Shown here piece after piece: positions 15,702-56,420 of a stretch of 64,000 nucleotides of DNA. The notes beneath the pieces were generated by a model that had not been told where the DNA came from, did no database searches, and was given only the letters and a program-made list of their open reading frames with translations. Numbering within the stretch: the stretch's first letter is position 1; every line of letters begins with the position of its first letter. The translations under genes were made by a program, and so were the position numbers. The stretch is from IMG/VR virus record IMGVR_UViG_3300045988_149625, one strand, 5' to 3'. The stretch is from a virus.

Positions 15702-15708
15702 ATATTAT

Positions 15709-16989: not shown

Positions 16990-17060
16990 GCGGGTGTAGT
17001 TTAGTGGTAAAATTACAGCCTTCCAAGCTGATGTTGTGAGTTCGATTCTCATCGCCCGCT
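16990..17060 (+). tRNA. tRNA-Gly (anticodon TCC), CCA not encoded
   Basis: close resemblance to Bacillus-type tRNA-Gly(TCC) (gcgggtgtagtttagtggtaaaa...ccttccaagctgatg...gagttcgattctcatcgcccgct). Confidence 0.75.
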
Positions 17061-17118
17061 CGCCTTGCTAAGTAAGCAACCTTCTCGTGGTGCAAGGTGT
17101 TTTAAACTAATAGCTTAC
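17059..17118 (+). repeat. 60 bp direct repeat copy 1 (ctcgccttgctaagtaagcaaccttctcgtggtgcaaggtgttttaaactaatagcttac)
   Basis: identical copy at 18480-18539; each starts at the 3' end of a tRNA (Gly, Thr). Confidence 0.9.
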
Positions 17119-17179
17119 GTAAACTAAGGAATTAGGGGATAACAACACCTCCCCTTAACAATAGTTAAGGAGGGATTTT

Positions 17180-17815
17180 ATGGCATTTATTTATAAAATT
17201 ACTAATGATATAAATGCTAAGGTGTATATTGGTAAAACTTTAGGTAGTATCAAGAAAAGGTGGAAAGAGCATTTAAAAGACTGTAAGAAGAGGAAAAATG
17301 AAAAACGACCTCTCTACGCTGCTATGAGAAAATATGGCACAGAGCATTTTAAGATTGCCTTAATAGAAGAGTGTCCTGAAGATATTGTTTCTGATAGGGA
17401 AATTTATTGGATTGAATACTTTGGTTCTTTCAAAAGTGGTTATAATGCTACAACAGGTGGGGATGGGAAGTCTTACTTAGACCGCAACATTGTAGGCGTA
17501 TTTTGGATATTTAATAAAAACATACATGAGATACAACAGCTTACAGGTTACTCCTCCTCTACAATTAGAAATGCACTACACCAATTTGGTATAGACCCCT
17601 TTTATATTAAAAAGAGGGGTAGCGAGGGTACTTATAAATCTGTTAGTATGCTCACAAAAGATGGTAAGTTTATTAGGAGCTTCCATTCTATTACCGAAGC
17701 TAATGCTTATATTGAATCTATTTATCATTGTAAAATTAATGGTGGAGGGCATATACCTTGCGTTTGCTCTGGAAAAAGAGTAACAGCTTATGGTTATAAA
17801 TGGGTATATAATTAA
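17180..17815 (+). CDS. GIY-YIG homing endonuclease (SegB/I-TevI-like) with C-terminal HTH
   Basis: 211 aa; FIYKITN...KVYIGKT (GIY...YIG), R/E/N catalytic block KKRWKEH...EIYWIEYF...YNATTGGDG; embedded in tRNA cluster. Confidence 0.85.
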   Translation: MAFIYKITNDINAKVYIGKTLGSIKKRWKEHLKDCKKRKNEKRPLYAAMRKYGTEHFKIALIEECPEDIVSDREIYWIEYFGSFKSGYNATTGGDGKSYLDRNIVGVFWIFNKNIHEIQQLTGYSSSTIRNALHQFGIDPFYIKKRGSEGTYKSVSMLTKDGKFIRSFHSITEANAYIESIYHCKINGGGHIPCVCSGKRVTAYGYKWVYN

Positions 17816-17832
17816 TTCTCATCGCCCGCTCC
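17815..17832 (+). repeat. duplicated 3' fragment of tRNA-Gly (ttctcatcgcccgct + CCA) abutting HEG stop codon
   Basis: 16 nt identical to 17045-17060. Confidence 0.7.
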
Positions 17833-17934
17833 ATATGTTGAGGGTAGAAAGGCGGCTACCGTCTAATAAGAATAGCTTAGATTGAAAATTTCTTATTGGA
17901 AGATGTGGAAAATGTCGTTCCACCAACATTAAAC

Positions 17935-18008
17935 TTCCCCATAGGTTATGGATAAACTAAGGGACTTCTAATCCTTTGCTCTGTGTTCGACTCACAGTGG
18001 GGAAGCCA
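17935..18008 (+). tRNA. tRNA-Arg (anticodon TCT)
   Basis: acceptor ttcccca/tggggaa, loop cuUCUaa, T-arm ctgtg-ttcgact-cacag, CCA. Confidence 0.65.
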
Positions 18009-18012
18009 AAAT

Positions 18013-18088
18013 GCGCACATAACTCAGTTGGTAGAGTAACCGACTTTTAATCGGTATGTCCTAGGTTCAATTCCTAGTGTGCGCACCA
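18013..18088 (+). tRNA. tRNA-Lys (anticodon TTT)
   Basis: acceptor gcgcaca/tgtgcgc, D-arm actc-agttggtag-agta, loop cuUUUaa, CCA. Confidence 0.75.
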
Positions 18089-18094
18089 TTTTAT

Positions 18095-18179
18095 GTGCCT
18101 GTGGCGTAATTGGCAGCCGCAAGGGACTTAAAATCCCTCGGATTTATCCGTACCAGTTCGAGTCTGGTCAGGCACACCA
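18095..18179 (+). tRNA. tRNA-Leu (anticodon TAA)
   Basis: acceptor gtgcctg/caggcac, anticodon stem aggga/tccct loop cuUAAaa, long variable arm, CCA. Confidence 0.75.
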
Positions 18180-18331
18180 AATGCGGCAAAGCACAAGTGT
18201 GTAGTTGAGGAAGCAAGGACTCAAAAGGGTGTGTGCAACTCCTACTTGCCGCGCCATATGGGTTGATAATGTAACAGTTAATACTTTGAACTATAACAAG
18301 GAATTATATTCAAGTATTTCAGCCCAATCTT

Positions 18332-18407
18332 GCTTCTCTAGCTCAGTTGGTAGAGCAAAGGATTGAAAATCATTGTGTGAGTGGTTCGATTCCATTGGGA
18401 AGCACCA
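18332..18407 (+). tRNA. tRNA-Phe (anticodon GAA)
   Basis: D-arm gctc-agttggta-gagc, loop uuGAAaa, T-arm agtgg-ttcgatt-ccatt, CCA. Confidence 0.65.
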
Positions 18408-18410
18408 AAT

Positions 18411-18481
18411 GCTGGCATAGTTTAATGGTAAAACGCTAGTTTTGTAAACTAGCTTTGCGGGTTCGATTCCTGCTGCCAGCT
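18411..18481 (+). tRNA. tRNA-Thr (anticodon TGT), CCA not encoded
   Basis: acceptor gctggca/tgccagc, anticodon stem ctagt/actag loop uuUGUaa. Confidence 0.7.
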
Positions 18482-18539
18482 CGCCTTGCTAAGTAAGCAA
18501 CCTTCTCGTGGTGCAAGGTGTTTTAAACTAATAGCTTAC
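18480..18539 (+). repeat. 60 bp direct repeat copy 2
   Basis: identical to 17059-17118. Confidence 0.9.
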
Positions 18540-18569
18540 AAGAGATTAATTGAGGAAGCCCCCAAAAAT

Positions 18570-18644
18570 TGGCATATAGCTCAATGGTAGAGTAGATGAC
18601 CGTTAATCATTTGGCTGTAGGTTCGAGTCCTACTATGCCAGCCA
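18570..18644 (+). tRNA. tRNA-Asn (anticodon GTT)
   Basis: acceptor tggcata/tatgcca, D-arm gctc-aatggta-gagt, loop ccGUUaa (C33 unusual), CCA. Confidence 0.6.
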
Positions 18645-44742: not shown

Positions 44743-44753
44743 GAGAGGATTAA

Positions 44754-45200
44754 ATGAATACAGAAATGTCAGTTGTTGTTACAGGAATACTGTATGACGA
44801 GAATAATAATATTAAACAAAAGTTTGTAAAGCATAATTTGATTACAAGTGTAGGTTTTGATTTTGTAAGTAATTGCTTGGGTTCAACAACAAGACCAAAA
44901 CCTATTAGTCAAATTGGTGTAGGAACTAATAATACTGCCCCCGCTCTAGGGGATACAAACTTGAAAGCACTTAAACTTAAAAAGGCTTGTACCTACACTC
45001 ATACAGCAGGAACTACTTCCCTTGTATTCCAGACAGTTTTTGGTGCTGGGGAGGCAACGGGCGCTTTGGTGGAAGCGGGTATTTTTACAGGGGATGGTAT
45101 TTTATTTGATAGAGTTGTATACCCAGTAATTAATAAAGAAGATGTAGATACTTATGCAATGACTTTTGAAATTATTTTGAAGGAAGTATCAGTAGTATGA
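44754..45200 (+). CDS. tail/baseplate protein
   Basis: 148 aa. Confidence 0.4.
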   Translation: MNTEMSVVVTGILYDENNNIKQKFVKHNLITSVGFDFVSNCLGSTTRPKPISQIGVGTNNTAPALGDTNLKALKLKKACTYTHTAGTTSLVFQTVFGAGEATGALVEAGIFTGDGILFDRVVYPVINKEDVDTYAMTFEIILKEVSVV

Positions 45201-45937
45201 GTTTTACGATTAGAGAGGAAATTCGTGGCATAAAATTAAAAGAAGTCGCATTTCCTATCAGCCATTTTAAAGGGAAACGCTTAAAAGATTTTCGAGGAAC
45301 AGCTTACATTGCAGACTGGAAAGATTTACTAAGCTTCGACCTAGATGCTACAACTGTAAATGCTTATTCTAGAAAATTTAGTACAGCATTGGGGATACAA
45401 GAGGCACATAATAAGAAAACTATAAAGCATATTAAAGAGATATTTGGAATTGGTGTATTAAAAATAAATAATGCACAACAAGTATTAAGTGATTTACGCT
45501 TCTATGATAAGGTTCTAAATGAAACAAATTTTGATGAAACATTTACACCTTTTGGTTATAGTAAGTGGAAGAAAATGATTACAGGCGATTATATATATCA
45601 AAAAGCATTATGTAAATATGTAATGCAAGCTAGTCTTAATGCAGATAGACCTAATGCAAGGGCGTATACGCATAAAGTAGATGTGCCAGACCTTTTGGCT
45701 CAAGGTACGGTAGAATTAACAGTGAGTAATCAACCACGGGAGGTACACTTTCCTAAGGATAGGACTTTCCATATTGTACCAGAAATGAATATATCTATTA
45801 AGAGTTACAGTGGCACAGGTGCAACACCTTTAGTGTTGGCTTACAATGTTACTACAAAAGGTTTTATGGTGTCTATGAAAAACGAAGATGGCGGCTATGT
45901 TGAGGGGACAATAACTTATGCAGCCCGCGGATATTGA
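45197..45937 (+). CDS. tail/baseplate protein
   Basis: 246 aa. Confidence 0.4.
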   Translation: MSFTIREEIRGIKLKEVAFPISHFKGKRLKDFRGTAYIADWKDLLSFDLDATTVNAYSRKFSTALGIQEAHNKKTIKHIKEIFGIGVLKINNAQQVLSDLRFYDKVLNETNFDETFTPFGYSKWKKMITGDYIYQKALCKYVMQASLNADRPNARAYTHKVDVPDLLAQGTVELTVSNQPREVHFPKDRTFHIVPEMNISIKSYSGTGATPLVLAYNVTTKGFMVSMKNEDGGYVEGTITYAARGY

Positions 45938-45946
45938 GGTGAGATA

Positions 45947-46552
45947 ATGCAGAGATTAAGAAGAATAGAAGAAACTGAAACACTTGCAAACTCCTTAGAC
46001 CCTATAAATAAGAATTTTGAAAGTGTACAATCACAACATAGTGGTACAAGTTTCCCCCAAGATAATTTAGTTTTGGGACAACCTTGTTTTAGAACAGATA
46101 CAATGAGTCTTTATATCCTATCTAATGTGGAGTATAACTTATGGATAAAGGTAGCAGATTTAACATTAACACTTGTTAATAAGGAGTATGTGGATACATT
46201 CCATATCCCTCTTAGCAGGGTGGATGATATAATAGATGCTGCTACAAATAAGATTAAAATGAGCCTTATGTATACAGGCACACAAAATGGACAATTAGTA
46301 ATGGTAGGAAATAATAATAAGATAGCAACAAGCCTTATTGATACAGGGGTTAAGGCAGGACAGGTTGTGATGGTAAATGCAGATGGTAAAATACCTAATG
46401 GTATTTTAAATATAGGTTATGGTAGGGAAGAGATACCTATATTGAATGATAAAGCACTTATTCCAGATACCATTTTACCGAGTAATTTAGCGCGTTTTAA
46501 TGAGAGCGGACAAATAGTATTTCCTAATGGTACGAAAATGTGGGTGAAATAG
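45947..46552 (+). CDS. tail fibre-associated protein
   Basis: 201 aa. Confidence 0.4.
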   Translation: MQRLRRIEETETLANSLDPINKNFESVQSQHSGTSFPQDNLVLGQPCFRTDTMSLYILSNVEYNLWIKVADLTLTLVNKEYVDTFHIPLSRVDDIIDAATNKIKMSLMYTGTQNGQLVMVGNNNKIATSLIDTGVKAGQVVMVNADGKIPNGILNIGYGREEIPILNDKALIPDTILPSNLARFNESGQIVFPNGTKMWVK

Positions 46553-46553
46553 T

Positions 46554-47357
46554 ATGGGTGTAACAGAGCATGTTTTAAACATACAAAGTAGTAATAATAA
46601 AAAAGTAGTTCCTTTATATGATACACCTACTTGTAGCTATACAGGAAGGTCTTTACCAATTAAATTAGCTAATGGTTCAACTGTGTATGCACCTCTAGGT
46701 GTTACAGATGATTTGTATGGAACACAGCTTTGGGTAGAAATTGATGGAGCGTCTTATAGAGTGGTTGAGCAAAGTGTGCAAGGTATTCAAGGTGTAAACT
46801 TTGATAAGACTGTAAAAATAGAATTTAGTGGTAGCGGTGAGCGCACAGCTAAATATGATACTTTTTATTTTGTAGCACCAAGAAGAACCAAGTTTCATTA
46901 TAAAAGTATGGTTAATTACGGACAAACTGGTTGGGGATACAGCTCTGATAGGTGGCAACGTAGTGATATATGGATAAACTTAGATGGAAATCTACTTGTT
47001 AAGAAAACTTTTAGACGCAGTGCAGGCATTAATTGGAAAACTCTATATGATGGGGACATTGAATTAGATGCAGGAACACATCGAATGGAACTTTGGCTTT
47101 TGGGGCAAGGCTCTAGTAAAGATAGTCATTTAACTGTTTGTTATGCTTGGAACAATGATTTGTTAATGTCTGGACAACAATTTGTCCAATATTCAAGTCC
47201 AGGTACGTATGACTTCACAGTTCCTAAGGGTGTGGAAAGCATTACCATCGTGACTGTTGGTGGTGGCGGTGGTGGAGCAGGGTATGGATACACCCCCCAA
47301 GAAGATAGTGGTAGCGGCCCCAGTCAAGGTGAAGGTAGTGGAGGCGAAGGAGCATGA
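46554..47357 (+). CDS. tail fibre protein with Gly-rich C-terminus
   Basis: 267 aa ending TVGGGGGGAGYGYTPQEDSGSGPSQGEGSGGEGA. Confidence 0.45.
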   Translation: MGVTEHVLNIQSSNNKKVVPLYDTPTCSYTGRSLPIKLANGSTVYAPLGVTDDLYGTQLWVEIDGASYRVVEQSVQGIQGVNFDKTVKIEFSGSGERTAKYDTFYFVAPRRTKFHYKSMVNYGQTGWGYSSDRWQRSDIWINLDGNLLVKKTFRRSAGINWKTLYDGDIELDAGTHRMELWLLGQGSSKDSHLTVCYAWNNDLLMSGQQFVQYSSPGTYDFTVPKGVESITIVTVGGGGGGAGYGYTPQEDSGSGPSQGEGSGGEGA

Positions 47358-47836
47358 GTAGTTATCCTTATACACAAGTTATTGTAGATGCTAAAGGCAC
47401 AGATGGTGGAAATTCTAAGGCTTCTTTAAATGGAGCAGATATAATTCTTGCAACTGGGGGCAGTGGTGCAAAATATAAAAGAACTCGTACCCATGTTAAT
47501 TGGCACAGCTCTACTGAGTCCGAAGAAAAGCAGGTAGGTAGGGGTGGTACACCAAATGGCATAGATGGCACTTATTCAGTATCTGGCACAAAGGGGTATG
47601 ATATTCGTCCAGAGGTTACTAGAGGTTCTTATGGTAGCGGGGGAGGTTGTTCAAATACTAATACAGTTGTATATCCTGTATCTGGGGGCAGTGGTGGTAT
47701 TAATATTGTCACCATTCCTGTTAAGGAAGGGGATAGATTACAAATCACTGTTGGAAGCGCGGGTGCAGGTGGTGGAATTGGTTTAGCAGGAAATGCAGGA
47801 GCGGTAGCATTATGGTATTACAAATTGGGAAACTAA
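47354..47836 (+). CDS. Gly-rich tail fibre-associated protein
   Basis: 160 aa; SYGSGGGCSNT, VSGGSGGINIV, GSAGAGGGIGLAGNAGAVALWYY; 3' end overlaps radical-SAM gene start by 25 nt. Confidence 0.45.
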   Translation: MSSYPYTQVIVDAKGTDGGNSKASLNGADIILATGGSGAKYKRTRTHVNWHSSTESEEKQVGRGGTPNGIDGTYSVSGTKGYDIRPEVTRGSYGSGGGCSNTNTVVYPVSGGSGGINIVTIPVKEGDRLQITVGSAGAGGGIGLAGNAGAVALWYYKLGN

Positions 47837-49035
47837 TAGATAATATATTAGTGGCAAAATTTATAACAAATAATACATTAAAAGAGTTTAAAGATTTAGT
47901 TGGGGAAGGAGATTATGTGGATATTACAGGGGTCGACATTCAAGAGGGTGACAAATTTGTTAATGGGGATGCTATTCATTGTGAGGGCGATTCATTATCC
48001 AAGGAAGGTGTAAAAGCACTTTATCTGATGCTAGGCAGTGCGTGTAATATGTCTTGCAGACATTGTACACAAACTCCTATTAAAGGTAATGTTGCTTTTC
48101 CTACTACTGAGTTAAGTAAGGATGTACTAGATTTTATAGTAAATTGGGATAAAAATGGCGGTGGAAGGTTATATTTTTGGGGCGGTGAACCTTTACTTTA
48201 TTGGAATACAATAAAGAAACTTATAGAAGAGTTTGAAAAAATGGGAATGAGAAATACTTCTTATCGCATTTTCACCAATGGTCTATTACTTTCAAATTCC
48301 ATTGTAGACTTTTGTAACAAACATAATATATGGGTAATTATGAGTTATGATGCACCTAACCCCTTAGCTGCAAGAAACGCCATGCCGTCAGAGAGAAATA
48401 TAGAAGCTTTCTTGTTGGCAGAAAAAAGAACAGTAAATGGTGTATACAATGCCTTAAACTGTGATATGGTAGCTGCTTTTAAATACTTGGAGTCAAAATT
48501 TCCTAATACTGAGGTAACTCTAGGGTTTATAAATGTATTATGGGATATACCAAAAGACTTATACGCTTTTGGAAAAGGCGAAGTAAGAAAGGCGGTAAAA
48601 GATTTATTTGAATATTATAAAGAAACAAGGGATTCAAATGTACACAGGTGGTTTGAAACTAAACTTAGAAGAGGGAATTACTTTTCCATTGAAGAATTTA
48701 TGCTTTCCCCATTTCCTCCCTGTGCACCTGGGCGTATCTCTTTATCTATAGATTTTGCAGGTAATATAATAAGATGCCACAATGACGATAAAGTGGTTGC
48801 AAATATTAAAGATGATTATTCAGATATATTAAAAGCACATGAAATGGAGTGGCTAAAGTTATTGCCAAGAAATTGTGCAGAATGTGAATGTCTACCTTTG
48901 TGCAGGTCAATTTGTCCAATAGCCTATAAGAAAGAAAACAAAGAAGAATTTGTACAATGTGATTATATAAGGGAGTTTTTTAGCGCGGTGCAGGAATGTG
49001 CCGATGATTTTTGGAGAATGGAAGGTGAGATGTAA
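47812..49035 (+). CDS. radical SAM enzyme with C-terminal SPASM domain (anSME/peptide-maturase clade)
   Basis: 407 aa; CNMSCRHC (CxxxCxxC), WGGEPLL, C-terminal seven-Cys cluster CAPGRIS...RCHNDD...NCAECECLPLCRSICP; stop abuts ATG of DGR target gene. Confidence 0.85.
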   Translation: MVLQIGKLIDNILVAKFITNNTLKEFKDLVGEGDYVDITGVDIQEGDKFVNGDAIHCEGDSLSKEGVKALYLMLGSACNMSCRHCTQTPIKGNVAFPTTELSKDVLDFIVNWDKNGGGRLYFWGGEPLLYWNTIKKLIEEFEKMGMRNTSYRIFTNGLLLSNSIVDFCNKHNIWVIMSYDAPNPLAARNAMPSERNIEAFLLAEKRTVNGVYNALNCDMVAAFKYLESKFPNTEVTLGFINVLWDIPKDLYAFGKGEVRKAVKDLFEYYKETRDSNVHRWFETKLRRGNYFSIEEFMLSPFPPCAPGRISLSIDFAGNIIRCHNDDKVVANIKDDYSDILKAHEMEWLKLLPRNCAECECLPLCRSICPIAYKKENKEEFVQCDYIREFFSAVQECADDFWRMEGEM

Positions 49036-50970
49036 ATGGCAAGCTTTCATAACTGGACAGGTGATGAATTAATTGATACACAAGTCCCACAGTTTTTAAA
49101 TGAAGATAATGCAGCAACACAGGAGAAATTAGACACTAAATTTAATAAATCCTTAGATATAGCAGAAGCCTCAGACTTAAACAATTTTAAGGATGAGGGG
49201 TTCTACTGCTGTAATTCTAATTCTCGTGCTGAAACTATTTTAAATTGTCCTACTAATTATGCTTTCGGTTTAATGGTATGGGGTAAAGGCGAAATAGTCT
49301 ATCAAGAAGTGCGCGAATTTAACAGAGGCTCTAACCAAGATTACAATAACTGTTGGAGAAGAAGTTATTCTGGGGGCGGACAAGGTGTGTGGTCTAACTG
49401 GCAGAAAGTGGCTTATGCAGCTACTACTTTAGCAGAATACGGAATAACAGACGGTATGGGCAAGAACGCCACAAACAGTGTGGGTGTGACAGATATTATT
49501 AAAAGAAGTATTAATACGTCGTACTTGCGTTTAACAGGTGGCAATACATTTGATAAAAGTGCAACTCTTCAACTCTGCGGAGGTACTTATGCAACAAACG
49601 CAGGACAGTTTTTATTAAAAGCAGCAGATTCAGCACACTCAGCAACTCTTTCAGGTAATCCTTCTGGGCTACTTAAATGGAATGATAAAAATATAGTACG
49701 TTCAGTAAATAATTCTGTTGCAGATGAACATGGTAATGTAACTTTACTGTTCCCCGACTCAGATGTAACGCAGGAAGGCGCGGGGTACTGGAAGCCTAAT
49801 GAATCAGTACAAGAAGGGGATATACGTTATGTGTATGGTAGAGGAAACACAGGTGTTGTTTTAAAATGTGTGAAAGCAGGAATAACAGGAGCAGAATTAC
49901 CAGATTTAGAGGCTGCTTCAAATGCTGTGCAATTAGTAACAGAAACTACTACTGAGGTAAAACCTTTTGATATATTGGATTATGTATCACAAGTACCAGA
50001 ATATTACACACGCCCTAGTTTGTATACAGTTTCAAAAAAATCTATAACTATACCTAAGGGGTTACGTGTAAGAATTGGTGATAAAGGTTATGAGAGTGTT
50101 AGTACAACTACATTAAGCACTACATCTTTGGGAAGTTTGGCAGCAAAAGATGTTTATATATATGCTTGTGCTCCTATTACTTTATCTACTGAGCCAATAT
50201 TTGTACTTTCATTAAATAGTACAGTACCTAGTGGGTATACCGCAGAAAACAGTCGCAAGATTGGCGGTTTTCATTGCTTATGTGCAGATGTTGGTACAAT
50301 AAGTGGACATACTTTAAGTGGTTATGTAGCAGGTGACATACTTCCTGCTTCTGCATGGGATTTAATTCATCGTCCACGATGTTCCCCCGAAGCAATGGTG
50401 TATTGTGATACGGTGGACTTTTGGGTCGATATATATTTGGATAGTTGGGATGGTAACAAATTAGTATCTGTATACAAAGGTGTTACAGCAGACGGAACTT
50501 CCACTAAAAAGTTTCATGGTGAGCTTTTTGTAGATGAGCTTGCAAAATTGAATAAAAGACTACCTCCAAGAAGAGTATTTCAAGCAATAATGAAAGGCTC
50601 AAATGAACGCACCAATGTTAAAGGTTCGAAAGACGTAAATACTACTGGTGGTAATGTAGATACAGCAGGTCGAAGAATGATAAGTAATTATGGTTGTGAA
50701 GATGGCTGCGGTTTCTTGTGGCAATGGTCTGATGAACTAGGTTTTGCAGGTGGTAGTGCATGGACAGATTCAGTATATAATTCAAGTGTCGATTCTGAAA
50801 GAATTGGACAAACTTATGGAACTTTGTATAGAGCTGCGCTGGGCGGTTGCTGGGTTCACGGCGGTTCTTGTGGTTCGCGGTCGGTGTTTTGCAGCCATTC
50901 CTCGGCTCTTGTCAGTGCTTATTTTGGCGGTCGCGGCGCTTGCGAGCCGAAGGTCGCAAAGTTCTATTAG
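49036..50970 (+). CDS. DGR target protein: tail fibre/receptor-binding protein with C-terminal variable (C-type-lectin-like) region
   Basis: 644 aa; 3' 115 nt form VR matching TR except at TR adenines. Confidence 0.85.
   Translation: MASFHNWTGDELIDTQVPQFLNEDNAATQEKLDTKFNKSLDIAEASDLNNFKDEGFYCCNSNSRAETILNCPTNYAFGLMVWGKGEIVYQEVREFNRGSNQDYNNCWRRSYSGGGQGVWSNWQKVAYAATTLAEYGITDGMGKNATNSVGVTDIIKRSINTSYLRLTGGNTFDKSATLQLCGGTYATNAGQFLLKAADSAHSATLSGNPSGLLKWNDKNIVRSVNNSVADEHGNVTLLFPDSDVTQEGAGYWKPNESVQEGDIRYVYGRGNTGVVLKCVKAGITGAELPDLEAASNAVQLVTETTTEVKPFDILDYVSQVPEYYTRPSLYTVSKKSITIPKGLRVRIGDKGYESVSTTTLSTTSLGSLAAKDVYIYACAPITLSTEPIFVLSLNSTVPSGYTAENSRKIGGFHCLCADVGTISGHTLSGYVAGDILPASAWDLIHRPRCSPEAMVYCDTVDFWVDIYLDSWDGNKLVSVYKGVTADGTSTKKFHGELFVDELAKLNKRLPPRRVFQAIMKGSNERTNVKGSKDVNTTGGNVDTAGRRMISNYGCEDGCGFLWQWSDELGFAGGSAWTDSVYNSSVDSERIGQTYGTLYRAALGGCWVHGGSCGSRSVFCSHSSALVSAYFGGRGACEPKVAKFY
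50831..50945 (+). repeat. DGR variable repeat (VR)
   Basis: 115 nt aligned to TR: 26 mismatches, all at TR A positions; GC-rich 3' end ggcggtcgcggcgcttgcga (IMH-like). Confidence 0.9.
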
Positions 50971-51046
50971 AACTAGGTATACGGCTACATGAAGTTGTTA
51001 AGGAACACGAAGTAGTCTTGAATATACTGGGTTGTGGTTGTTAAAA

Positions 51047-51161
51047 GAGCTAAACTAGGCGGTAACTGGGATAACAGCAGTTCTTGTAGTTCGCAGTCAG
51101 TGAATTGCAACAATTCCTCAGCTAATGTCAATGCTAATTATGGCGGTCGCGGCGCTTGCGA
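51047..51161 (+). repeat. DGR template repeat (TR)
   Basis: AAC/AAT-rich (LGGNWDNSSSCSSQSVNCNNSSANVNANYGGRGACD in VR frame), non-coding copy. Confidence 0.9.
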
Positions 51162-51416
51162 TACGGAGAGAGCTATTCCTTCGGCTGAACCACAATCCAT
51201 TCTAGCAGAGAAATACTGTATAGAAAAACACACAACAGGAGTATAGAAGGGCTAGTAGTGTAAACGAACGTCATTCTATAAAACTCCGTATCTTTAAATA
51301 AAGGAGAAATAAACTTGAAAAGAATTGGGAATTTATGAACTAAAATTATAGATAAAGAAAATATTAAGGAGAGTATTTTAAGCGCTGCAAAACATAAGAA
51401 AAAGCGCCCTGCGGTA

Positions 51417-52709
51417 ATGAAGGTACTCAATAATATAGACGAATATGTAGAAAAGATTCACAAATTGTTAGTAAACAAGGAGTATAAAGTTTCGGAATAT
51501 TATATAAAAGCAATTTATGAGCCTAAGCTAAGGCTTATTTACATATTACCCTTTTATCCAGATAATATAATATTTCACTGCATAATGAGGGTATTAGAGC
51601 CTATATGGGACAGTAGGTTTATTTATGATACTTATTCATGCAGGAAGGGTAAGGGGCAACATAAAGGAATGTTAAAGAGCACTATATACGTAAAGAATTA
51701 CAAATACTGCTTAAAATGTGATATAAGTCAGTTTTACCCAAGCCTTAATCATAGAATACTAAAGGAAAGTTTCCGTTGGAAAATCAAAGATAAGGACGTA
51801 TTGGAGCTACTTGACTTAATAGTAGATAGTGTTTCTGTGCGGGAAAGGAATCTAGATTTTTTAAAGTGCTGCAAGGCAAGTGATAAACATATGATGGAAC
51901 AGAAGCTTCAAACATTAAAAGAAGAGTTCCCAGAAGGAGATTTCGGTGTGCCTATTGGTAATTATCCTTCACAATGGTTCGGAAACCTTTATATGAACCC
52001 TTTAGATAACCTTATTAAGTACTGTTTCCATGCAAAAGCATATGTAAGATACTGCGACGATTTTGTTGTTTACAGTAATGATAAAAAGTGGTTACATAGT
52101 GTAGCTGCGGAGATAGAGAACTTTTGTAAGGAAAGATTAAAATTAAAGATGAGTAAGTGTCGGGTATTTCCTACGAAGTGTGGAGTAGATTTCTTAGGGT
52201 ATAAAGCATTTCCCAGTGGTAAGATTCTTTTGCGTAAAAGGACAGCAAAAAGAGTCCATAAACAAATAAAAGCATTATGGAAAGAGCTATCTTATGGGAA
52301 CTATGAACAAATGCTTTCTAAAGTGGGAAGCAGAATGGGGTATTTAAGGTACGCTAAAAGTTATAATTTTAGATTACAAATAAAGATTAAAGAGTTGGAA
52401 AGGGAACTAAAAAGGAGGATTAGTATGGTAGGTTATCCAAAAAATTTAAGCACAAAAGAAGATTATGAGTACGTGAGAACACATTTCCCTAAAAGTGATT
52501 GGCAGAAAGACTTTGAAAGTCTTTTACCTCGCAAGGAATGGTTCTTCATTGAAGAAACTAAGGTTAATAAAAAAGAAGATGCTACTCATAAAACAGAACC
52601 CTCTGACGATGAAGGGGTATTCTATCGTTATGAATTGAGGGGGGTAAGTAAGGCAGCAGAAATTGGATATACGGTAGAAGAAGTAGAGAAGATTCTAAGG
52701 AGTGAATAA
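51417..52709 (+). CDS. DGR reverse transcriptase
   Basis: 430 aa; RT motifs LKCDISQFYPS, GVPIGNYPSQ, YVRYCDDFVV (YxDD); the frame is open upstream to 51339 with RT-like residues but no ATG. Confidence 0.9.
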   Translation: MKVLNNIDEYVEKIHKLLVNKEYKVSEYYIKAIYEPKLRLIYILPFYPDNIIFHCIMRVLEPIWDSRFIYDTYSCRKGKGQHKGMLKSTIYVKNYKYCLKCDISQFYPSLNHRILKESFRWKIKDKDVLELLDLIVDSVSVRERNLDFLKCCKASDKHMMEQKLQTLKEEFPEGDFGVPIGNYPSQWFGNLYMNPLDNLIKYCFHAKAYVRYCDDFVVYSNDKKWLHSVAAEIENFCKERLKLKMSKCRVFPTKCGVDFLGYKAFPSGKILLRKRTAKRVHKQIKALWKELSYGNYEQMLSKVGSRMGYLRYAKSYNFRLQIKIKELERELKRRISMVGYPKNLSTKEDYEYVRTHFPKSDWQKDFESLLPRKEWFFIEETKVNKKEDATHKTEPSDDEGVFYRYELRGVSKAAEIGYTVEEVEKILRSE

Positions 52710-52711
52710 TA

Positions 52712-53719
52712 ATGGTAGTAGATAATACAGTACAGTGGTTACAGCTTAATTTAAAAGAAACAGGTTTGCCAGTAGGGTTTGAATACTTTACAATGAACCC
52801 AAACATACCCGCAGGAAGTTTGCCGCTACAAGGTGGTCTTTATAGCAGATTAGCATATTCAGACCTTTGGGAATGGGTACAGAAACAGACAGGATATTTA
52901 AAGGCTGAGTCAGAGTGGCAGGAACTTGCGGTCAGTAATAGTGGAAATGTGCCGTTTTACAGTAGCGGTGATGGTAGCACTACATTTAGAGTTCCTGCGC
53001 TGAAATGCTGGGTGCGGGGTGCTAGTAGCATTAGTGAGGTTGGTGGCTATTTGACTGCTGGATTGCCGAATATTACAGGAAGTATGGGACTAGCTGGTGC
53101 TCCTATATCAAATGCTAATAATAGAAACTTATATCCAAGCATTCTAAATGGTGTGTTTGAGATACAAGAAGGGCAAGAAGAACATTGGGCGGGTGAGCAT
53201 AAGGCAAATACTTTTTCAAAAGATGCGATTATATTTAACGCTTTTCTTTCTAATCCCATCTACGGTGCATCCGATACTGTACAACCACCATCCATCGTAG
53301 GCTTATGGTGTGTAAAGGCTTATGGCACTGTTACAAATGTTGGTAGCACGGATGTGGCTAATTTAGCACAAGGACTAACACAAACTGAAACACGTATAAG
53401 TGCATTGGAAACAAACAAGGTTGACAAGGCTGGTAATGCATGGGTGGTAGAATCTTACCGCAACGGCACTGAATGGTATAGAGTATGGTCAGATGGTTGG
53501 GTAGAACAAGGTGGATATTTTGAAAAGAAAAGAGACACGGCTTTAACTGTTACATTTTTGAAGCCTTACGTAGATAATGAATATACGTTTGCTTGTATGC
53601 TAGCTAGAGAAAATGGTTCTACACCAAAACTAACCACAAAGACTACAACAGGTTTTTCTATGTACACTGCCTCATGGGACTATGATATGTATTGGCGCAC
53701 AGAAGGTAAGGGGGCTTAA
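52712..53719 (+). CDS. tail fibre protein (putative)
   Basis: 335 aa downstream of DGR. Confidence 0.4.
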   Translation: MVVDNTVQWLQLNLKETGLPVGFEYFTMNPNIPAGSLPLQGGLYSRLAYSDLWEWVQKQTGYLKAESEWQELAVSNSGNVPFYSSGDGSTTFRVPALKCWVRGASSISEVGGYLTAGLPNITGSMGLAGAPISNANNRNLYPSILNGVFEIQEGQEEHWAGEHKANTFSKDAIIFNAFLSNPIYGASDTVQPPSIVGLWCVKAYGTVTNVGSTDVANLAQGLTQTETRISALETNKVDKAGNAWVVESYRNGTEWYRVWSDGWVEQGGYFEKKRDTALTVTFLKPYVDNEYTFACMLARENGSTPKLTTKTTTGFSMYTASWDYDMYWRTEGKGA

Positions 53720-53725
53720 TTTATT

Positions 53726-54205
53726 ATGTTAGGCACAAAAATCTATAAAACTGATATGAGCAATTACACTGATTGTGCTATTTGGTGTAATCAAAACAAA
53801 GCAACTATTGAGGATAGGGGCACTTATTACGAAGTGGTAACTTTACCACTCCCGACGCTGCAAGAAATTAAGGTTGCCAAAATCGCAGAGCTTAAAGCCG
53901 AGAGGGATGCAAAAGAGGTTGAGCCGATTACCTACAACGGCAACAGCTATGATTACGATGACAAGGCACGTGACCGCATTAATGCAGCTATTGTTGCCCT
54001 GTCTGTACAAGGCACTGGTGCTGACTTAATGTGGACTACCGCTGACAACAAAGAAGTCCCTGTGACTGCCGACGATTTACGTATGGTAATCGCTGCTGTG
54101 GCGGTACGTAGCAATGCTTTGCATACTGCCTACCGTATAGCGAAAGAAAAAGTTGAAGCAGCGCAGAATAAAGAAGAAGTTGAAGCTATAATATTAAATG
54201 TGTAA
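53726..54205 (+). CDS. tail fibre assembly/accessory protein (putative)
   Basis: 159 aa. Confidence 0.35.
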   Translation: MLGTKIYKTDMSNYTDCAIWCNQNKATIEDRGTYYEVVTLPLPTLQEIKVAKIAELKAERDAKEVEPITYNGNSYDYDDKARDRINAAIVALSVQGTGADLMWTTADNKEVPVTADDLRMVIAAVAVRSNALHTAYRIAKEKVEAAQNKEEVEAIILNV

Positions 54206-54223
54206 TATTGAGAGGGTGGACTA

Positions 54224-54514
54224 ATGGATGGAAGAAATTTTGCAAATAGATTAAATAAAATGTCAAAGAATGTACTTAAACCTTTAATACCTGCACTTGG
54301 TTTACACAAGCGGGTTGAAAGGGTATTATATTTGAGGTACATTGAAGAGCAAAGTATTTATGATATAGCAGAGGATGCAGGAATGTCCTTTGATTCTCTT
54401 AATAATTATCTTAGTTTTGCAAGACATGAAATGCTTTCTACAATGCAACGAGATTTTGAGATATTACCAGATGATATTAAAAAGTTGATTAACATTGTAT
54501 TATCAGACTGTTAA
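54224..54514 (+). CDS. sigma-70 region 4-like HTH protein (putative late transcription regulator)
   Basis: 96 aa; LHKRVERVLYLRYIEEQSIYDIAEDAGMSFDSLNNYL resembles sigma region 4.2. Confidence 0.45.
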   Translation: MDGRNFANRLNKMSKNVLKPLIPALGLHKRVERVLYLRYIEEQSIYDIAEDAGMSFDSLNNYLSFARHEMLSTMQRDFEILPDDIKKLINIVLSDC

Positions 54515-54579
54515 AAGTTAGTTATTCACCCTTTAAAATATATGCTATAATTAAAATGTAAGTTGAGGAGGGGTGTGAA

Positions 54580-54990
54580 ATGTATCCTAATAATAATTAC
54601 TTTGGGCAAGGTTATATGAATTACCCATATTTTAATATGAATCAATCTGGGCAGCAAGGTTTTCAGCAGGGACAACAAGTAATGCCCCCAAATAAACCTC
54701 AAATGCCAAAAACCGCATTTGTAGCAAGTTTTGATGAGGTTAAATCTGCCGCTGTAGATTATGATGGAAGCCTTAAGGTTTTTGTAGATACGCAGCAGGA
54801 CAGAATTTATACAAAACAGTTTACAAATGAGGGTAAAGTTGATTATAAAGTATTTATTTTAAGTAAGGATGAACCGAGGGAAATAAGCCCTGCAAATTTT
54901 GCAACTAAAGACGACTTAGAGGTGTTGCTAAGTGAAGTTGCAGAATTAAAGGATAGTTTGAATAGGTTGGAAGGGGGAGCTACTAAATGA
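54580..54990 (+). CDS. Q/N/Y-rich (prion-like, spore-coat-like) protein
   Basis: 136 aa; N-term YPNNNYFGQGYMNYPYFNMNQSGQQGFQQGQQ. Confidence 0.45.
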   Translation: MYPNNNYFGQGYMNYPYFNMNQSGQQGFQQGQQVMPPNKPQMPKTAFVASFDEVKSAAVDYDGSLKVFVDTQQDRIYTKQFTNEGKVDYKVFILSKDEPREISPANFATKDDLEVLLSEVAELKDSLNRLEGGATK

Positions 54991-55214
54991 TGAATCCGAT
55001 GCAGTTAATGGGAATGGTACAGGGGTCACAAAATCCCATGCAGTTAATGCAACAAATGTTTGGTGGCAATCCCCTATTTAACCAAGCTATGCAAATGGGA
55101 CGGGGGAAAAGCCCTGAACAGTTGCAACAAATAGTTAGAAATATTGCGCATACAAAAGGTATGAGTGATAATGATTTAAATAATTTTCTTTCACAATTTA
55201 ACCTAAGATTTTAG
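54987..55214 (+). CDS. Met/Gln-rich small protein
   Basis: 75 aa; MMNPMQLMGMVQGSQNPMQLMQQMFGG. Confidence 0.4.
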   Translation: MMNPMQLMGMVQGSQNPMQLMQQMFGGNPLFNQAMQMGRGKSPEQLQQIVRNIAHTKGMSDNDLNNFLSQFNLRF

Positions 55215-55271
55215 CAGACGCGCGGGCTAGAAGATTGGGCTGAAAATAAATCAATATAGGAGGTACTTACT

Positions 55272-55946
55272 ATGGAAGGTACTGGTGTTGTTCCTGTAAT
55301 GAATATGAACCGTGGATATGACAACGATTGGAGTAATGGTTGTGGTATGTGGTTCATGTGGATTATTGTTATCTTTGCCTTAATGGGCGGATGGGGAAAT
55401 GGTTTCGGTAATAACAGGGGTTTAAACGAAGCCTTAACTAGAAGCGACCTGCAAGCAGGTTTTGATAACCAATCTGTTCAAAGAGGTATAGCAGGTATTC
55501 AAAATGGTCTGTGTGACGGCTTTTATGCACAGAACACAACTATGTTAAACGGTTTCAATGGAGTACAGCGTGATTTAATGGCGAATGGTTATCAGTTAGG
55601 TAATCAAATCGCAGAAAACCGCTTTGCTGCACAAGATTGTTGCTGCACCACAAATCGCAACATAGATTCTGTAAGAGCTGAAAACTATAAGAATACTTGT
55701 GAAATTGTGAACGCAATTAATGCGGATGGTGAAAAGACACGTGCAGTAATGGTAGCTAATACCATTCAAGAACTTCGTGATAAACTTGCTGACAGAGATA
55801 GAGATTTGCAGACTGCTAATTTCCAGCTTAGTCAACAAGCGCAAAGTGCAGCCTTAATTGGTGCGCTTAGACCCTTCCCGCAGCCTGCATTTTTAACCTG
55901 CTCTCCTTATCAGAGCGCAGCAAATAATGTTTGTGGTTGTGTTTAA
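55272..55946 (+). CDS. membrane protein with Gly/Asn-rich region and CCC motif
   Basis: 224 aa; TM MWFMWIIVIFALMGGW. Confidence 0.4.
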   Translation: MEGTGVVPVMNMNRGYDNDWSNGCGMWFMWIIVIFALMGGWGNGFGNNRGLNEALTRSDLQAGFDNQSVQRGIAGIQNGLCDGFYAQNTTMLNGFNGVQRDLMANGYQLGNQIAENRFAAQDCCCTTNRNIDSVRAENYKNTCEIVNAINADGEKTRAVMVANTIQELRDKLADRDRDLQTANFQLSQQAQSAALIGALRPFPQPAFLTCSPYQSAANNVCGCV

Positions 55947-55953
55947 ATAACTT

Positions 55954-55978
55954 GGGGTGTTAGTTCACCCCTTTATTT
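55954..55978 (+). terminator. rho-independent terminator (ggggtg-ttagtt-cacccc + TTTATTT)
   Basis: read directly. Confidence 0.55.
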
Positions 55979-55994
55979 AAAGGAGGGATAAGGA

Positions 55995-56420
55995 ATGGCT
56001 TACTTAAATGCTATTAACTCTGTCACTCAGACAGTGGTAGCTGATGGGTATTTAGTATACGACACAAAAGCTGTAAGCGGTTGCAATAGTTGTTGCAATC
56101 AAGGAATTTTATTTACAGCAGGTAGTAATACAATTACTTTACGTAAAGCAGGAACTTACTTAGTCACTGTTAATGCGAATGTTACACCTACTGCGGCGGG
56201 GGATATTTCCCTACGCTTGGTTAAGAACGGTGTAGCAGTCCCTGGTGCTAGTGCTACTGCGACAGGTGTGGTAGCTACTACATTCCCTGCAAGTTTTACC
56301 ACTTTGATTACGGTTCTACCTTCTTGCAAAGCTATCAATAATGTAGCTTCACTGCAAGTACAGTTGACAGCTGCGGGAACGGTAACAAGCACTTCTTTCA
56401 CCGCTGTAAAAATTGCGTAG
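55995..56420 (+). CDS. BclA-C-terminal/C1q-like beta-sandwich protein (putative)
   Basis: 141 aa; Thr/Ala/Val-rich beta pattern TLITVLPS...VQLTAAGTVTSTSFTAVKIA. Confidence 0.35.
   Translation: MAYLNAINSVTQTVVADGYLVYDTKAVSGCNSCCNQGILFTAGSNTITLRKAGTYLVTVNANVTPTAAGDISLRLVKNGVAVPGASATATGVVATTFPASFTTLITVLPSCKAINNVASLQVQLTAAGTVTSTSFTAVKIA

What the first reader, a model, noticed from the sequence alone, without database searches (positions are those of the whole stretch)
49036..52709. Complete diversity-generating retroelement targeting the C-terminus of a tail-fibre protein
VR (50831-50945) and TR (51047-51161) align over 115 nt with 26 mismatches. Every mismatch falls at an adenine in TR (TR A -> VR G/T/C), and the 3' 24 nt are an identical GC-rich IMH-like stretch. 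TR read in the VR frame is AAC/AAT-rich (N W D N S S S C S S Q S V N C N N S S A N V N A N Y). A reverse transcriptase with the YxDD box (YCDDF) follows at 51417-52709. This is the hallmark of mutagenic retrohoming diversifying a receptor-binding domain. No avd-like accessory ORF is apparent between the target and TR.
Basis: seen in the sequence. Interest (0 to 1): 0.75.

Follow-up and report, generated by a model that had tools for sequence, protein, structure and literature searches.

The report
Phage tail-fibre diversifier with interrupted RT
A ~100 kb gut phage carries a working diversity-generating retroelement that rewrites the receptor-binding tip of a tail protein; this kind of system is well known, but here its reverse transcriptase has a conserved in-frame stop codon and an unusual fused extra domain.

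Summary
VR 50831-50945 and TR 51047-51161 differ at 23 positions (not 26), and all 23 are TR adenines. The identical GC-rich 3' run is 21 nt, not 24. The repeat extends to 50827/51043.

The target (49036-50970) is a homologue of Bordetella phage Mtd. The RT is closest to the Bordetella DGR RT. Sixteen related metagenome contigs carry 14 different VRs, and these differ almost only at TR-adenine positions, even between contigs with identical RT protein. The element is therefore active.

- The RT gene really starts at TTG 51315, behind a strong ribosome-binding site. It has an in-frame TGA (51336-51338) where homologues have an almost invariant Trp. The TGA is fixed in every relative seen, and the 26 codons after it evolve like coding sequence. 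I infer leaky UGA decoding.
- The last 94 residues of the RT (52425-52706) are a separate ~100 aa gene in other Mtd-type cassettes. This makes them a candidate accessory factor. No Avd was found.
- A covarying hairpin lies in the TR-RT spacer.

The element is a known kind of system with variant features. Interest is moderate.

The parts
49036..50970 (+). Target gene: 644 aa Mtd-like tail receptor-binding protein. It has an N-terminal ~330 aa extension and an Mtd-homologous C-terminal ~300 aa.
   Evidence: ORF. Pfam mtd_2nd E 7e-22. PHROG 11262 tail protein E 1e-57. PDB Mtd 1yu0 E 4e-18 over residues 338-638. BPP-1 mtd at 30% identity, including VR1. Foldseek top five hits are all Mtd.
50827..50945 (+). 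Variable region (VR), 119 nt, encoding the last ~40 residues before the C-terminal tail.
   Evidence: 25 mismatches to TR, all at TR adenines. 14 distinct VRs in 16 relatives; 26 polymorphic columns lie at TR-A positions.
50925..50945 (+). IMH-like GC-rich 3' end of VR, identical to the 3' end of TR (21 nt, 76% GC).
   Evidence: In relatives whose TR differs here, their own VR carries the same differences.
50940..50959 (+). Inverted repeat (TTGCGA..TCGCAA) at the IMH / VR boundary, as found downstream of VR in phage DGR targets.
   Evidence: DNA fold of 50920-50985: -13.7 kcal/mol, z -2.4; also listed. One relative group has a G>A that breaks one pair, so support is moderate.
51043..51161 (+). 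Template region (TR), 119 nt, rich in AAY codons. 34 adenines, 28 of them at codon positions 1-2.
   Evidence: Theoretical diversity about 2e16 peptides.
51162..51314 (+). TR-RT spacer, presumably the 3' part of the DGR RNA. Motifs GAUACG, CCUUCGGCUGA and AAACACA are conserved in distant cassettes.
   Evidence: Alignment of six spacers. Sub-threshold Rfam hits RT-14 (24 bits, E 0.24) and Phage_DGR RF03022 (14 bits).
51238..51287 (+). Conserved spacer hairpin with UAGUAG ... CGAA internal motifs.
   Evidence: In seven lineages 82.9% of cells are paired against 64% in shuffles (0 of 500 reach it) and 39-45% when slid. 11 of 12 pairs have compensatory changes.
51300..51317 (+). Shine-Dalgarno AAAGGAG followed by the TTG start codon (51315) of the RT gene.
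   Evidence: Read from the sequence. TTG aligns with the Met of MKRxGNLW in homologues. The PHROG RT profile aligns from residue 2 of this start.
51336..51338 (+). In-frame TGA at RT codon 8, at the position of the near-invariant Trp of the GNLW motif.
   Evidence: Present in all 16 relatives. All 15 listed members of the 52-member cluster are called at 430 aa.
51315..52424 (+). Reverse transcriptase proper. IGNYPSQ is at 51954-51974 and YCDDF at 52050-52064.
   Evidence: Pfam RVT_1. PHROG 1423. Best PDB hit is the Bordetella DGR RT 8ub7, E 3.7e-34.
52425..52709 (+). C-terminal 94 aa 'X' domain fused to the RT, plus the stop codon. It is preceded by AAAGGAGG and a conserved Met (possible internal start).
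   Evidence: AlphaFold pLDDT 89.7. No fold match. Stand-alone homologues in L021, L024 and L027 are 39-52% identical. 341 family representatives, mostly ~100 aa.

Best explanation
This is a functional diversity-generating retroelement of the Bordetella-phage (Mtd) type in a ~100 kb siphovirus-like gut phage.

Proposed mechanism:
1. An RNA covering TR (51043-51161) and the structured spacer (51162-51314) is copied by the RT into cDNA, with random bases opposite template adenines.
2. The cDNA replaces VR (50827-50945), guided by the shared GC-rich 3' end and the adjacent inverted repeat.
3. This rewrites about 17 codons in the ligand-binding C-terminal domain of the Mtd-like tail protein and so alters receptor specificity.

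Two features are particular to this element.
- The RT gene starts at TTG 51315 and carries a TGA at codon 8. I propose that full-length RT is made only when this UGA is decoded, most likely as Trp by a tRNA-Trp(CCA). This would keep RT and retrohoming at a low level.
- There is no Avd. Instead the RT is fused to a 94 aa domain (X) that is a separate cassette gene elsewhere, and I propose that X is the accessory factor.

Shown: the anatomy, the homologies, adenine-restricted VR diversity in the population, fixation of the TGA, a coding-type substitution pattern after the TGA, and the fusion/separate-gene relationship of X. Inferred: readthrough as the decoding route, its regulatory role, and any function of X.
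For: DGR anatomy.
- All 23-25 VR/TR mismatches are at TR adenines.
- There is only one VR in the window.
- The target is an Mtd homologue, VR included.
- The RT is closest to the Bordetella DGR RT.
- The spacer hairpin covaries across seven lineages.

Activity.
- 16 relatives carry 14 VRs and 7 TRs.
- 26 polymorphic VR columns lie at TR-A positions. 8 follow non-A changes in the contig's own TR. 1 is unexplained.
- Ten contigs encoding the identical RT protein P0123 carry nine different VRs.

TGA.
- It is in frame and sits at the Trp of the consensus MKRHGNLW.
- It is fixed in all relatives, including ones with pS about 0.3 in the RT.
- The window uses TGA as an ordinary stop elsewhere, including ATGA gene overlaps.
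- In codons 9-34, 8 of 14 substitution events are synonymous in the RT frame (p 0.0045 against 22% expected). The other two frames give 1 of 14 and 3 of 13.
- pN/pS for codons 1-34 is 0.17-0.18, against 0.23-0.27 for the rest of the RT.
- ATG 51417 has no Shine-Dalgarno sequence, whereas TTG 51315 has AAAGGAG.
- In the Bordetella RT the N-terminal subdomain contacts the template:primer duplex, with a conserved Lys29 (bioRxiv 10.1101/2023.10.23.563531).

X domain.
- X is a stand-alone gene in the order target-TR-RT-Y-X in a Mu-like and in two siphovirus-like backgrounds.
- No Avd Pfam hit in 30 small ORFs of the window, nor within 10 kb of the RT in L001.
Against: - There is no direct evidence that the UGA is read, nor of which residue is inserted.
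- The substitution counts behind the coding-signature test are small: 14 events in 5 haplotypes.
- No tRNA with anticodon UCA is present in the 64 kb window. The remaining ~36 kb of the genome was not seen.
- Termination followed by reinitiation at AUU/AUA (codons 11-12) would fit the same substitution data.
- The role of X rests only on gene fusion and gene order. Its fold matches nothing known.
- The AlphaFold model of the VR-bearing part of the target was of low confidence.
- One relative group has a base change that weakens the inverted repeat after VR.
Confidence: 0.85

Rival explanations
1. The RT is translated from a start downstream of the TGA. This would be either ATG 51417 (as gene callers assume) or reinitiation at AUU/AUA codons 11-12 just after termination. 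TTG-to-TGA would then be only a 7-codon leader, and no stop-codon decoding would be needed.
For: - All database entries of this RT are called from ATG 51417 at 430 aa.
- Two related RT lineages have ATA where the start codon should be (L018, L019), so weak non-AUG starts seem to be used in this family.
- Reinitiation at codons 11-12 would still translate most of codons 9-34 and would fit.
Against: - ATG 51417 has no ribosome-binding site, whereas TTG 51315 has a strong one.
- If translation began at Met35, codons 9-34 should evolve neutrally. Instead they show a synonymous excess specific to the RT frame.
- Residues 1-7 (LKRIGNL) are unchanged in all relatives, with one synonymous change, and match the family-wide KRxGNLW motif.
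- An RT starting at Met35 would lack most of the N-terminal subdomain that contacts template and primer in the Bordetella enzyme.
Confidence: 0.25
2. The element is a decaying DGR. The TGA would be a nonsense mutation that killed the RT, and the VR/TR differences would be fossils of past activity.
For: An in-frame stop at a conserved residue is what a pseudogene looks like. A single unrelated contig (L020) has a TGA at RT codon 3, which may be such a case.
Against: - The TGA is shared by relatives whose RTs differ at about 30% of synonymous sites, yet the rest of the 464-codon frame has no further stop or frameshift in any of them, and pN/pS is 0.08-0.27.
- Contigs with identical RT protein carry nine different VRs that differ at TR-adenine positions. 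Diversification is therefore much younger than the TGA.
- Non-adenine changes in a lineage's TR are mirrored in its own VR.
Confidence: 0.04
3. The phage or its host reads TGA as Trp throughout (genetic code 4, or a recoded late-gene set), so the TGA is simply a Trp codon.
For: The TGA replaces a conserved Trp. Gut phages with recoded stop codons are known (literature listed).
Against: - Coding density is normal under code 11, and about a quarter of genes end in TGA, several as ATGA overlaps with the next gene.
- Reading TGA as sense extends ORFs only marginally.
- This is the only TGA that interrupts a recognisable gene.
- The other seven Trp codons of the RT are TGG.
- No UCA-anticodon tRNA is found among the 17 tRNA genes.
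Confidence: 0.05
4. The repeat is an ordinary duplication or gene-conversion tract that has nothing to do with the neighbouring RT.
For: None beyond the existence of two similar copies.
Against: Mismatches are exclusively at adenines of one copy. The same asymmetry holds in every relative. The RT is of the DGR clade.
Confidence: 0.01

Closest known systems
Bordetella phage BPP-1 DGR (mtd-avd-TR-brt), the prototype
   Same: - The target is a true Mtd homologue, with the VR at the same C-terminal position.
- TR lies just upstream of the RT.
- Variation is restricted to adenines, and TR is rich in AAY codons.
- VR ends in a GC-rich identical stretch followed by an inverted repeat.
- The RT's best solved relative is the Bordetella DGR RT.
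- A structured spacer RNA lies between TR and RT.
   Different: - No avd gene.
- The target has a ~330 aa N-terminal extension.
- The RT has a fused 94 aa C-terminal domain and an in-frame UGA at codon 8.
- The host phage is a ~100 kb siphovirus-like phage with 17 tRNA genes, whose capsid protein is 51% identical to that of Bacillus phage BCD7. It is not a 42 kb podovirus.
- Mtd identity is only ~30%.
Avd-less DGRs and DGR RTs with C-terminal extensions, catalogued by Wu et al. 2018 (PMC5758913)
   Same: That survey found 26% of DGRs without avd. About 20% of RTs had an extension of up to ~150 aa with no recognisable motif. About 3% of targets were of the Mtd type, one of them with an N-terminal extension. 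This element fits all three categories.
   Different: The survey did not assign the extensions to a family. Here the extension is shown to be a distinct ~100 aa protein family that also occurs as a separate cassette gene.
Mtd-type DGRs of gut Bacillota phages, e.g. Faecalibacterium phage Lagaffe (PMC11792537)
   Same: Gut phage, target similar to BPP-1 Mtd with aligned variable regions. Faecalibacterium phage records are among the tblastn matches of this RT.
   Different: No close DNA relative exists among 50,697 deposited phage genomes. RT matches there are at most 41% identical.
Programmed or leaky UGA readthrough (e.g. the phage Q-beta A1 protein; low-level UGA-to-Trp decoding in Bacillus subtilis; both from my own knowledge), and tRNA-Trp(CCA) variants that read UGA (PMC13092985)
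   Same: A single conserved in-frame UGA early in a gene, a coding signature downstream of it, and Trp as the expected residue. UGA followed by A is a comparatively weak terminator (my recollection, not tested).
   Different: No protein-level evidence here. No stimulatory element was identified. I found no paper describing such a stop in a DGR RT.
Rfam RT-14 RNA (RF02921) and Phage_DGR RNA (RF03022)
   Same: Both hits fall in the TR-RT spacer on the coding strand and span the whole model. The UAGUAG...CGAA hairpin matches the 3' hairpin of the RT-14 consensus. A related cassette scores higher (L019, 31.6 bits).
   Different: All scores are below the gathering thresholds (24 and 14 bits against 48 and 50), so this is not a member by Rfam's criterion.

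Membership tests
Diversity-generating retroelement (DGR) | TR/VR repeat pair whose differences are confined to adenines of the template copy | tested here: met
   23 of 23 mismatches (25 of 25 in the extended repeat) are at TR adenines. The same holds in all 16 relatives, apart from 1-2 isolated sites.
Diversity-generating retroelement (DGR) | Reverse transcriptase of the DGR clade (YxDD catalytic box; (I/L)GxxxSQ motif in domain 4) | tested here: met
   YCDDF and IGNYPSQ read from the sequence. Pfam RVT_1. PHROG 1423 E 1e-99. Best PDB hit is the Bordetella DGR RT at E 3.7e-34, 19 orders of magnitude better than group II intron RTs.
Diversity-generating retroelement (DGR) | VR at the 3' end of a target ORF, in a C-type-lectin-fold ligand-binding domain | tested here: met
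   VR ends 25 nt before the stop. A residue-by-residue alignment to Mtd covers the VR. The independent fold prediction of the last ~80 residues was inconclusive (pLDDT ~30), though the whole model retrieves only Mtd structures.
Diversity-generating retroelement (DGR) | IMH-type 3' boundary (GC-rich stretch shared by VR and TR, then divergence) and a nearby inverted repeat | tested here: met
   21 nt identical, 76% GC; divergence starts at 50946. Hairpin at 50940-50959, z -2.4. Function was not tested.
Diversity-generating retroelement (DGR) | Accessory protein Avd (present in 74% of DGRs; essential in BPP-1) | tested here: not met
   No Avd-family Pfam hit in 30 small ORFs of the window, in the ORFs next to the cassette, or within 10 kb of the RT in L001. 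About 36 kb of the genome was not seen. Avd-less DGRs are recognised, so this does not exclude membership.
Diversity-generating retroelement (DGR) | Evidence of ongoing mutagenic retrohoming | tested here: met
   14 VRs in 16 relatives, variable at TR-A columns. Nine VRs occur among ten contigs with identical RT protein. VRs track non-A changes in their own TR. Read-level data were not available.
Diversity-generating retroelement (DGR) | Structured RNA flanking TR that supports cDNA priming | tested here: inconclusive
   A covarying hairpin and conserved motifs exist in the spacer, but the Rfam DGR-associated models score below threshold. The priming site cannot be identified computationally.
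BPP-1-type cassette (mtd-avd-TR-brt) | Mtd-family target | tested here: met
   Pfam mtd_2nd E 7e-22. PDB 1yu0 E 4e-18.
BPP-1-type cassette (mtd-avd-TR-brt) | avd between target and TR | tested here: not met
   Only 72-76 nt separate the target stop from TR, and they hold no ORF.
Programmed stop-codon readthrough | In-frame stop conserved across diverged relatives, with a protein-coding substitution pattern downstream | tested here: met
   TGA is present in all 16 relatives and in the IMG/VR contig. In codons 9-34, 8 of 14 events are synonymous (p 0.0045), a signal specific to the RT frame.
Programmed stop-codon readthrough | Readthrough protein product demonstrated | not testable with these tools
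   Needs a reporter assay or proteomics.
Stop-codon reassignment (code 4) | TGA not used as a terminator and used widely for Trp | tested here: not met
   Many genes end in TGA, including ATGA overlaps. There is a single interrupting TGA. No tRNA(UCA) was found.

The most novel reading that the evidence does not exclude
In this phage lineage, mutagenic retrohoming is gated at translation. The RT can be made only when a UGA at the invariant Trp8 codon is misread, possibly helped by the phage's own unusual tRNA-Trp(CCA) at 15052-15123. Related lineages reach the same end with ATA start codons.

In addition, Avd is replaced by a previously undescribed ~100 aa acidic protein family (X). X is a separate gene in most Mtd-type cassettes, often with a small basic partner Y, and is fused to the RT here. 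Together these would define an Avd-independent DGR subtype with built-in control of RT dosage.
Probability: 0.35. Interest if true: 0.7.

Novelty: new variant of a known kind. Interest (0 to 1): 0.5.

Why it matters
DGRs in gut phages are common, so the element itself is not news. Three points are useful to specialists.

1. Avd is indispensable in the only biochemically dissected DGR, and how the quarter of DGRs that lack it work is an open question raised in the 2018 survey. A protein family that is fused to the RT in some cassettes and encoded next to it in others is a concrete, testable candidate.

2. A stop codon fixed at an invariant residue of an RT that is demonstrably still diversifying its target suggests that RT dosage is deliberately kept very low. 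It also shows that gene callers systematically mis-annotate this RT as N-terminally truncated, which could make automated surveys score such elements as defective.

3. The set of 16 near-identical phages with different VRs, and with TRs that have lost adenines at scaffold positions, is a natural data set on how templates evolve.

Tried and rejected
- Megablast of 47800-53800 against 50,697 phage genomes found no match.
- The VR-flank pattern found nothing in IMG/VR. The only IMG/VR relative begins 42 nt after the VR.
- The RT found no relative in 185,579 species genomes, so there is no host clue from prophages.
- Code 4 or general TGA recoding was considered and rejected.
- A suppressor tRNA was looked for and not found in the window.
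- A second VR elsewhere in the window was looked for and not found.
- Avd was looked for and not found.
- The MFE fold of the whole spacer is no better than shuffles (z -0.16). Only the comparative analysis shows structure.
- The promoter/terminator scan gave nothing above chance.
- Literature searches for stop codons or readthrough in DGR RTs found nothing relevant.
- The supplementary sequences of Wu et al. were not held, so X could not be compared with their CH1 class.

Full report
**1. The observation**

An independent repeat search returns the same pair as its longest family in 44000-56000. In the stated 115 nt there are 23 mismatches, not 26. Every one is an adenine in the downstream copy (12 A>G, 7 A>T, 4 A>C), and 23 of the 30 adenines are changed.

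The homology runs 4 nt further upstream, to 50827/51043, which adds two more A>T changes. It is bounded on both sides by non-adenine mismatches (50826 and 50946). The identical 3' run is 21 nt (50925-50945, 76% GC), not 24. TR patterns with every adenine degenerated hit only these two places in the window, with none expected by chance. There is therefore one VR and one TR.

**2. The target**

ORF 49036-50970 (644 aa) hits the Pfam family 'Mtd second domain' (E 7e-22) and a PHROG tail-protein family. Residues 338-638 align with the crystallised Bordetella phage Mtd (1yu0, E 4e-18). The alignment includes the VR-encoded segment, with GG.W...GSR....G.RG.C lining up. tblastn finds the BPP-1 mtd gene and its annotated VR1.

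An AlphaFold model of the last 315 residues is confident for the beta-sandwich part. It is poor (pLDDT ~30) for the last ~80 residues, which are the hypervariable part. Even so, the only significant PDB matches of the model are the five Mtd structures (E ~1e-9). The lectin fold of the VR region therefore rests on the sequence alignment.

In 25 homologues the most variable columns are those coded by AAY in TR. Over 1,400 proteins share this C-terminal module behind different N-terminal parts.

**3. The reverse transcriptase**

- Pfam RVT_1.
- PHROG 1423, E 1e-99.
- Best solved relative is the Bordetella DGR RT (8ub7, E 3.7e-34, against 4e-15 for group II intron RTs).
- YCDDF is at 52050-52064, and the DGR-typical IGNYPSQ at 51954-51974.

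The ORF from ATG 51417 is not the whole gene. In the same frame, 102 nt upstream, TTG 51315 follows AAAGGAG at the right distance. The intervening 34 codons read LKRIGNL*TKIIDKENIKESILSAAKHKKKRPAV. Homologues begin MKRxGNLW.KI...NL, and the PHROG profile aligns from residue 2. The TGA at 51336-51338 therefore sits exactly where the family has a near-invariant Trp.

**4. Is the TGA real, and is the RT dead?**

The window uses TGA as a normal terminator, often as an ATGA overlap with the next gene. Reading TGA as sense barely lengthens the ORFs. This is the only TGA that interrupts a recognisable gene. Of 17 tRNA genes none has anticodon UCA. General recoding is therefore rejected.

I collected 16 related loci from independent human-gut assemblies, with contigs of up to ~100-106 kb. 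All of them have the TGA. All 15 listed members of the 52-member protein cluster are called at 430 aa. The most distant relatives differ from the window at about 30-35% of synonymous sites in the RT. None has a further stop or frameshift in the 464-codon frame, and pN/pS is 0.08-0.27.

For codons 1-34, pN/pS is 0.17-0.18 in the two most informative comparisons, similar to the rest of the gene. Counting substitution events in codons 9-34, the stretch between the TGA and the ATG, 8 of 14 are synonymous in the RT frame (binomial p 0.0045 against a 22% neutral expectation). The other two frames give 1 of 14 and 3 of 13. This stretch is therefore being translated in the RT frame.

In the Bordetella enzyme this N-terminal subdomain contacts the template:primer duplex and carries a conserved Lys that touches the template phosphate (bioRxiv 10.1101/2023.10.23.563531). 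A protein starting at Met35 would lack it.

**5. Activity**

The 16 relatives carry 14 different VRs and 7 different TRs. The polymorphic VR columns break down as follows:

| Number of columns | Explanation |
|---|---|
| 26 | TR-adenine positions |
| 8 | follow a non-adenine change in that contig's own TR, including five in the GC-rich 3' end |
| 1 | unexplained |

Ten contigs that encode exactly the same RT protein (P0123) carry nine different VRs. VR diversification is thus far younger than the TGA, which is ancestral to the whole group. The RT works despite the TGA.

I take leaky decoding of UGA as the most likely route. Trp is the probable residue, because tRNA-Trp(CCA) is the near-cognate reader; variants of it that read UGA are described in PMC13092985. 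Termination followed by reinitiation at AUU/AUA codons 11-12 remains possible.

Two related RT lineages have ATA in place of the start codon behind a good ribosome-binding site (L018, whose cluster has 251 members, and L019). This suggests that weak RT translation is a recurring feature of this family. A single contig (L020) has a TGA at codon 3.

**6. The accessory question**

No Avd-family hit was found:
- in the ORFs around the cassette;
- in 30 Avd-sized ORFs across the window;
- within 10 kb of the RT in L001.

The RT is about 95 residues longer than typical relatives. The extension begins at a conserved Met (ATG 52425), preceded by AAAGGAGG. It folds confidently on its own (pLDDT 89.7; two helices, three strands, two helices). 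It matches no solved or viral predicted structure and no Pfam, PHROG or NCBIfam family.

In other Mtd-type cassettes the same sequence is a separate ~95-100 aa gene, 39-52% identical, with tblastn E values of 1e-18 to 1e-22. In L021, L024 (a Mu-like prophage background) and L027 (a siphovirus-like background) the order is target, TR, RT (337-356 aa), a ~100 aa basic protein (Y), then X.

A profile search finds 341 cluster representatives. Nearly all are stand-alone proteins of ~95-110 aa, and a few are fused to the C-terminus of RT-sized proteins. A gene that travels with the RT across phage types and is sometimes fused to it is very likely part of the machinery. Its function is unknown. Y has no homologue in the window.

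The 2018 survey reported 26% of DGRs without avd, and ~20% of RTs with unexplained C-terminal extensions (PMC5758913). This element falls in that space and gives the extension an identity.

**7. The RNA**

The 153 nt between TR and the RT start is highly conserved among close relatives (12 of 149 columns polymorphic). It shares the motifs GAUACG, CCUUCGGCUGA and AAACACA with distant cassettes.

A hairpin at 51238-51287 with UAGUAG and CGAA internal motifs covaries in seven lineages:
- 82.9% of cells are paired, against 64% in shuffles (0 of 500 reach the observed value) and 39-45% when the partner is slid;
- 11 of 12 pairs have compensatory changes.

Rfam's RT-14 and Phage_DGR models match the spacer only below threshold. 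Single-sequence folding of the whole spacer is uninformative.

**8. Context**

The window is a phage. Its features include:
- a major capsid protein of the N4-gp56 family, 51% identical to that of Bacillus phage BCD7;
- an SPP1-type portal and a tail terminator;
- Phage-tail_3 on the homologue of the window's 1003 aa ORF in L001;
- lysis genes and 17 tRNA genes.

There is no close relative among deposited phages or in species genomes. The host is unknown; a Bacillota host is plausible from the capsid relationship only.

**9. Verdict**

The element is a DGR of the Mtd type, and membership is met on all defining features except Avd, which a recognised minority of DGRs lack.

It is a variant in three ways: it has no Avd, its RT is fused to a member of an uncharacterised cassette protein family, and its RT frame carries a fixed UGA that must be decoded or bypassed.

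My confidence in each claim:

| Claim | Confidence |
|---|---|
| Active DGR | ~0.9 or higher |
| UGA readthrough specifically | ~0.5 |
| X as an accessory factor | ~0.5-0.6 |

Noticed in passing
window 47812-49035 (+): A radical SAM/SPASM enzyme resembling peptide maturases sits here. Its best NCBIfam matches are the PapB ranthipeptide and SCIFF thioether maturases, all below cutoff. Its stop codon abuts the start of the DGR target gene (TAA ATG). The arrangement is conserved in all close relatives but not in distant cassettes. The target's C-terminus is Cys-rich, and the two preceding ORFs are Gly-rich. Whether a tail protein is its substrate is unknown.
   Followed up: partly
window 15052-15127 (+), and the tRNA array 15624-18644: The phage carries 17 tRNA genes. 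The tRNA-Trp(CCA) lies apart from the main array. Rfam aligns it only over model positions 3-68, because the top two acceptor pairs do not form unless a U is bulged. It has U11:A24 and a G27.U43 pair, and CCA is encoded. It is a candidate UGA reader for the RT, but this was not tested.
   Followed up: partly
L005, L007, L010, L012, L013 (TR at ~2626-2744) and L016/L017: In these relatives the TR itself has lost 7-11 adenines relative to the window's TR. This includes the two adenines that code Ser and Gln where every VR, and every homologue, has the scaffold residues Gly and Arg (GSR). The template appears to be 'hardened' at positions where variation is not tolerated, either by VR-to-TR conversion or by selection.
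   Followed up: partly
L018 3303 and L019 334 (RT starts); L020 316-324: Two other RT lineages of this family have ATA where the start codon should be, behind a good ribosome-binding site, so gene callers truncate them by 40-70 residues. One contig has a TGA at RT codon 3 (MK*HSNLW).
   Followed up: partly
L021 5018-5296, L024 4683-4985, L027 4691-4999, L020 1325-1591: A second conserved small protein (Y, ~90-100 aa, pI 8-9.4) lies immediately after the RT in cassettes where X is a separate gene. It is absent from the window and from the other cassettes with a fused RT-X.
   Followed up: partly
window 52712-53719 (+) and 53726-54205 (+): The tail-fibre gene right after the RT differs in length and domain content among otherwise near-identical relatives (288, 331, 335, 340, 386 and 428 aa; Collar or Gp53-like_C domains). 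This looks like a swapped module. It is followed by a DUF4376 tail-fibre-assembly-like gene.
   Followed up: no
L002/L003 (IMG/VR contig, 99 kb), position 1: This contig starts 42 nt after the VR-equivalent position. The assembly seems to have broken at the hypervariable repeat, which is a practical hazard when counting DGRs in assemblies.
   Followed up: no
window 46554-47836 (+): Two adjacent ORFs (267 and 160 aa) have Gly-rich tracts (GGGGGAGYGY..., GSGGG...) and an internal 33 nt repeat (47436/47664). There are only weak PHROG tail hits, and the function is unknown.
   Followed up: no
L001 3978-4634, against window 45937/45947: An HNH endonuclease gene is inserted in L001 between the homologues of two tail-region genes that are adjacent in the window.
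   Followed up: no
window 7426-8488 (-): A DNA methylase domain (N6_N4_Mtase) matches only from profile position 79 onward in ORF 7429-7974. Overlapping ORFs lie upstream, so the gene may be split or frameshifted.
   Followed up: no
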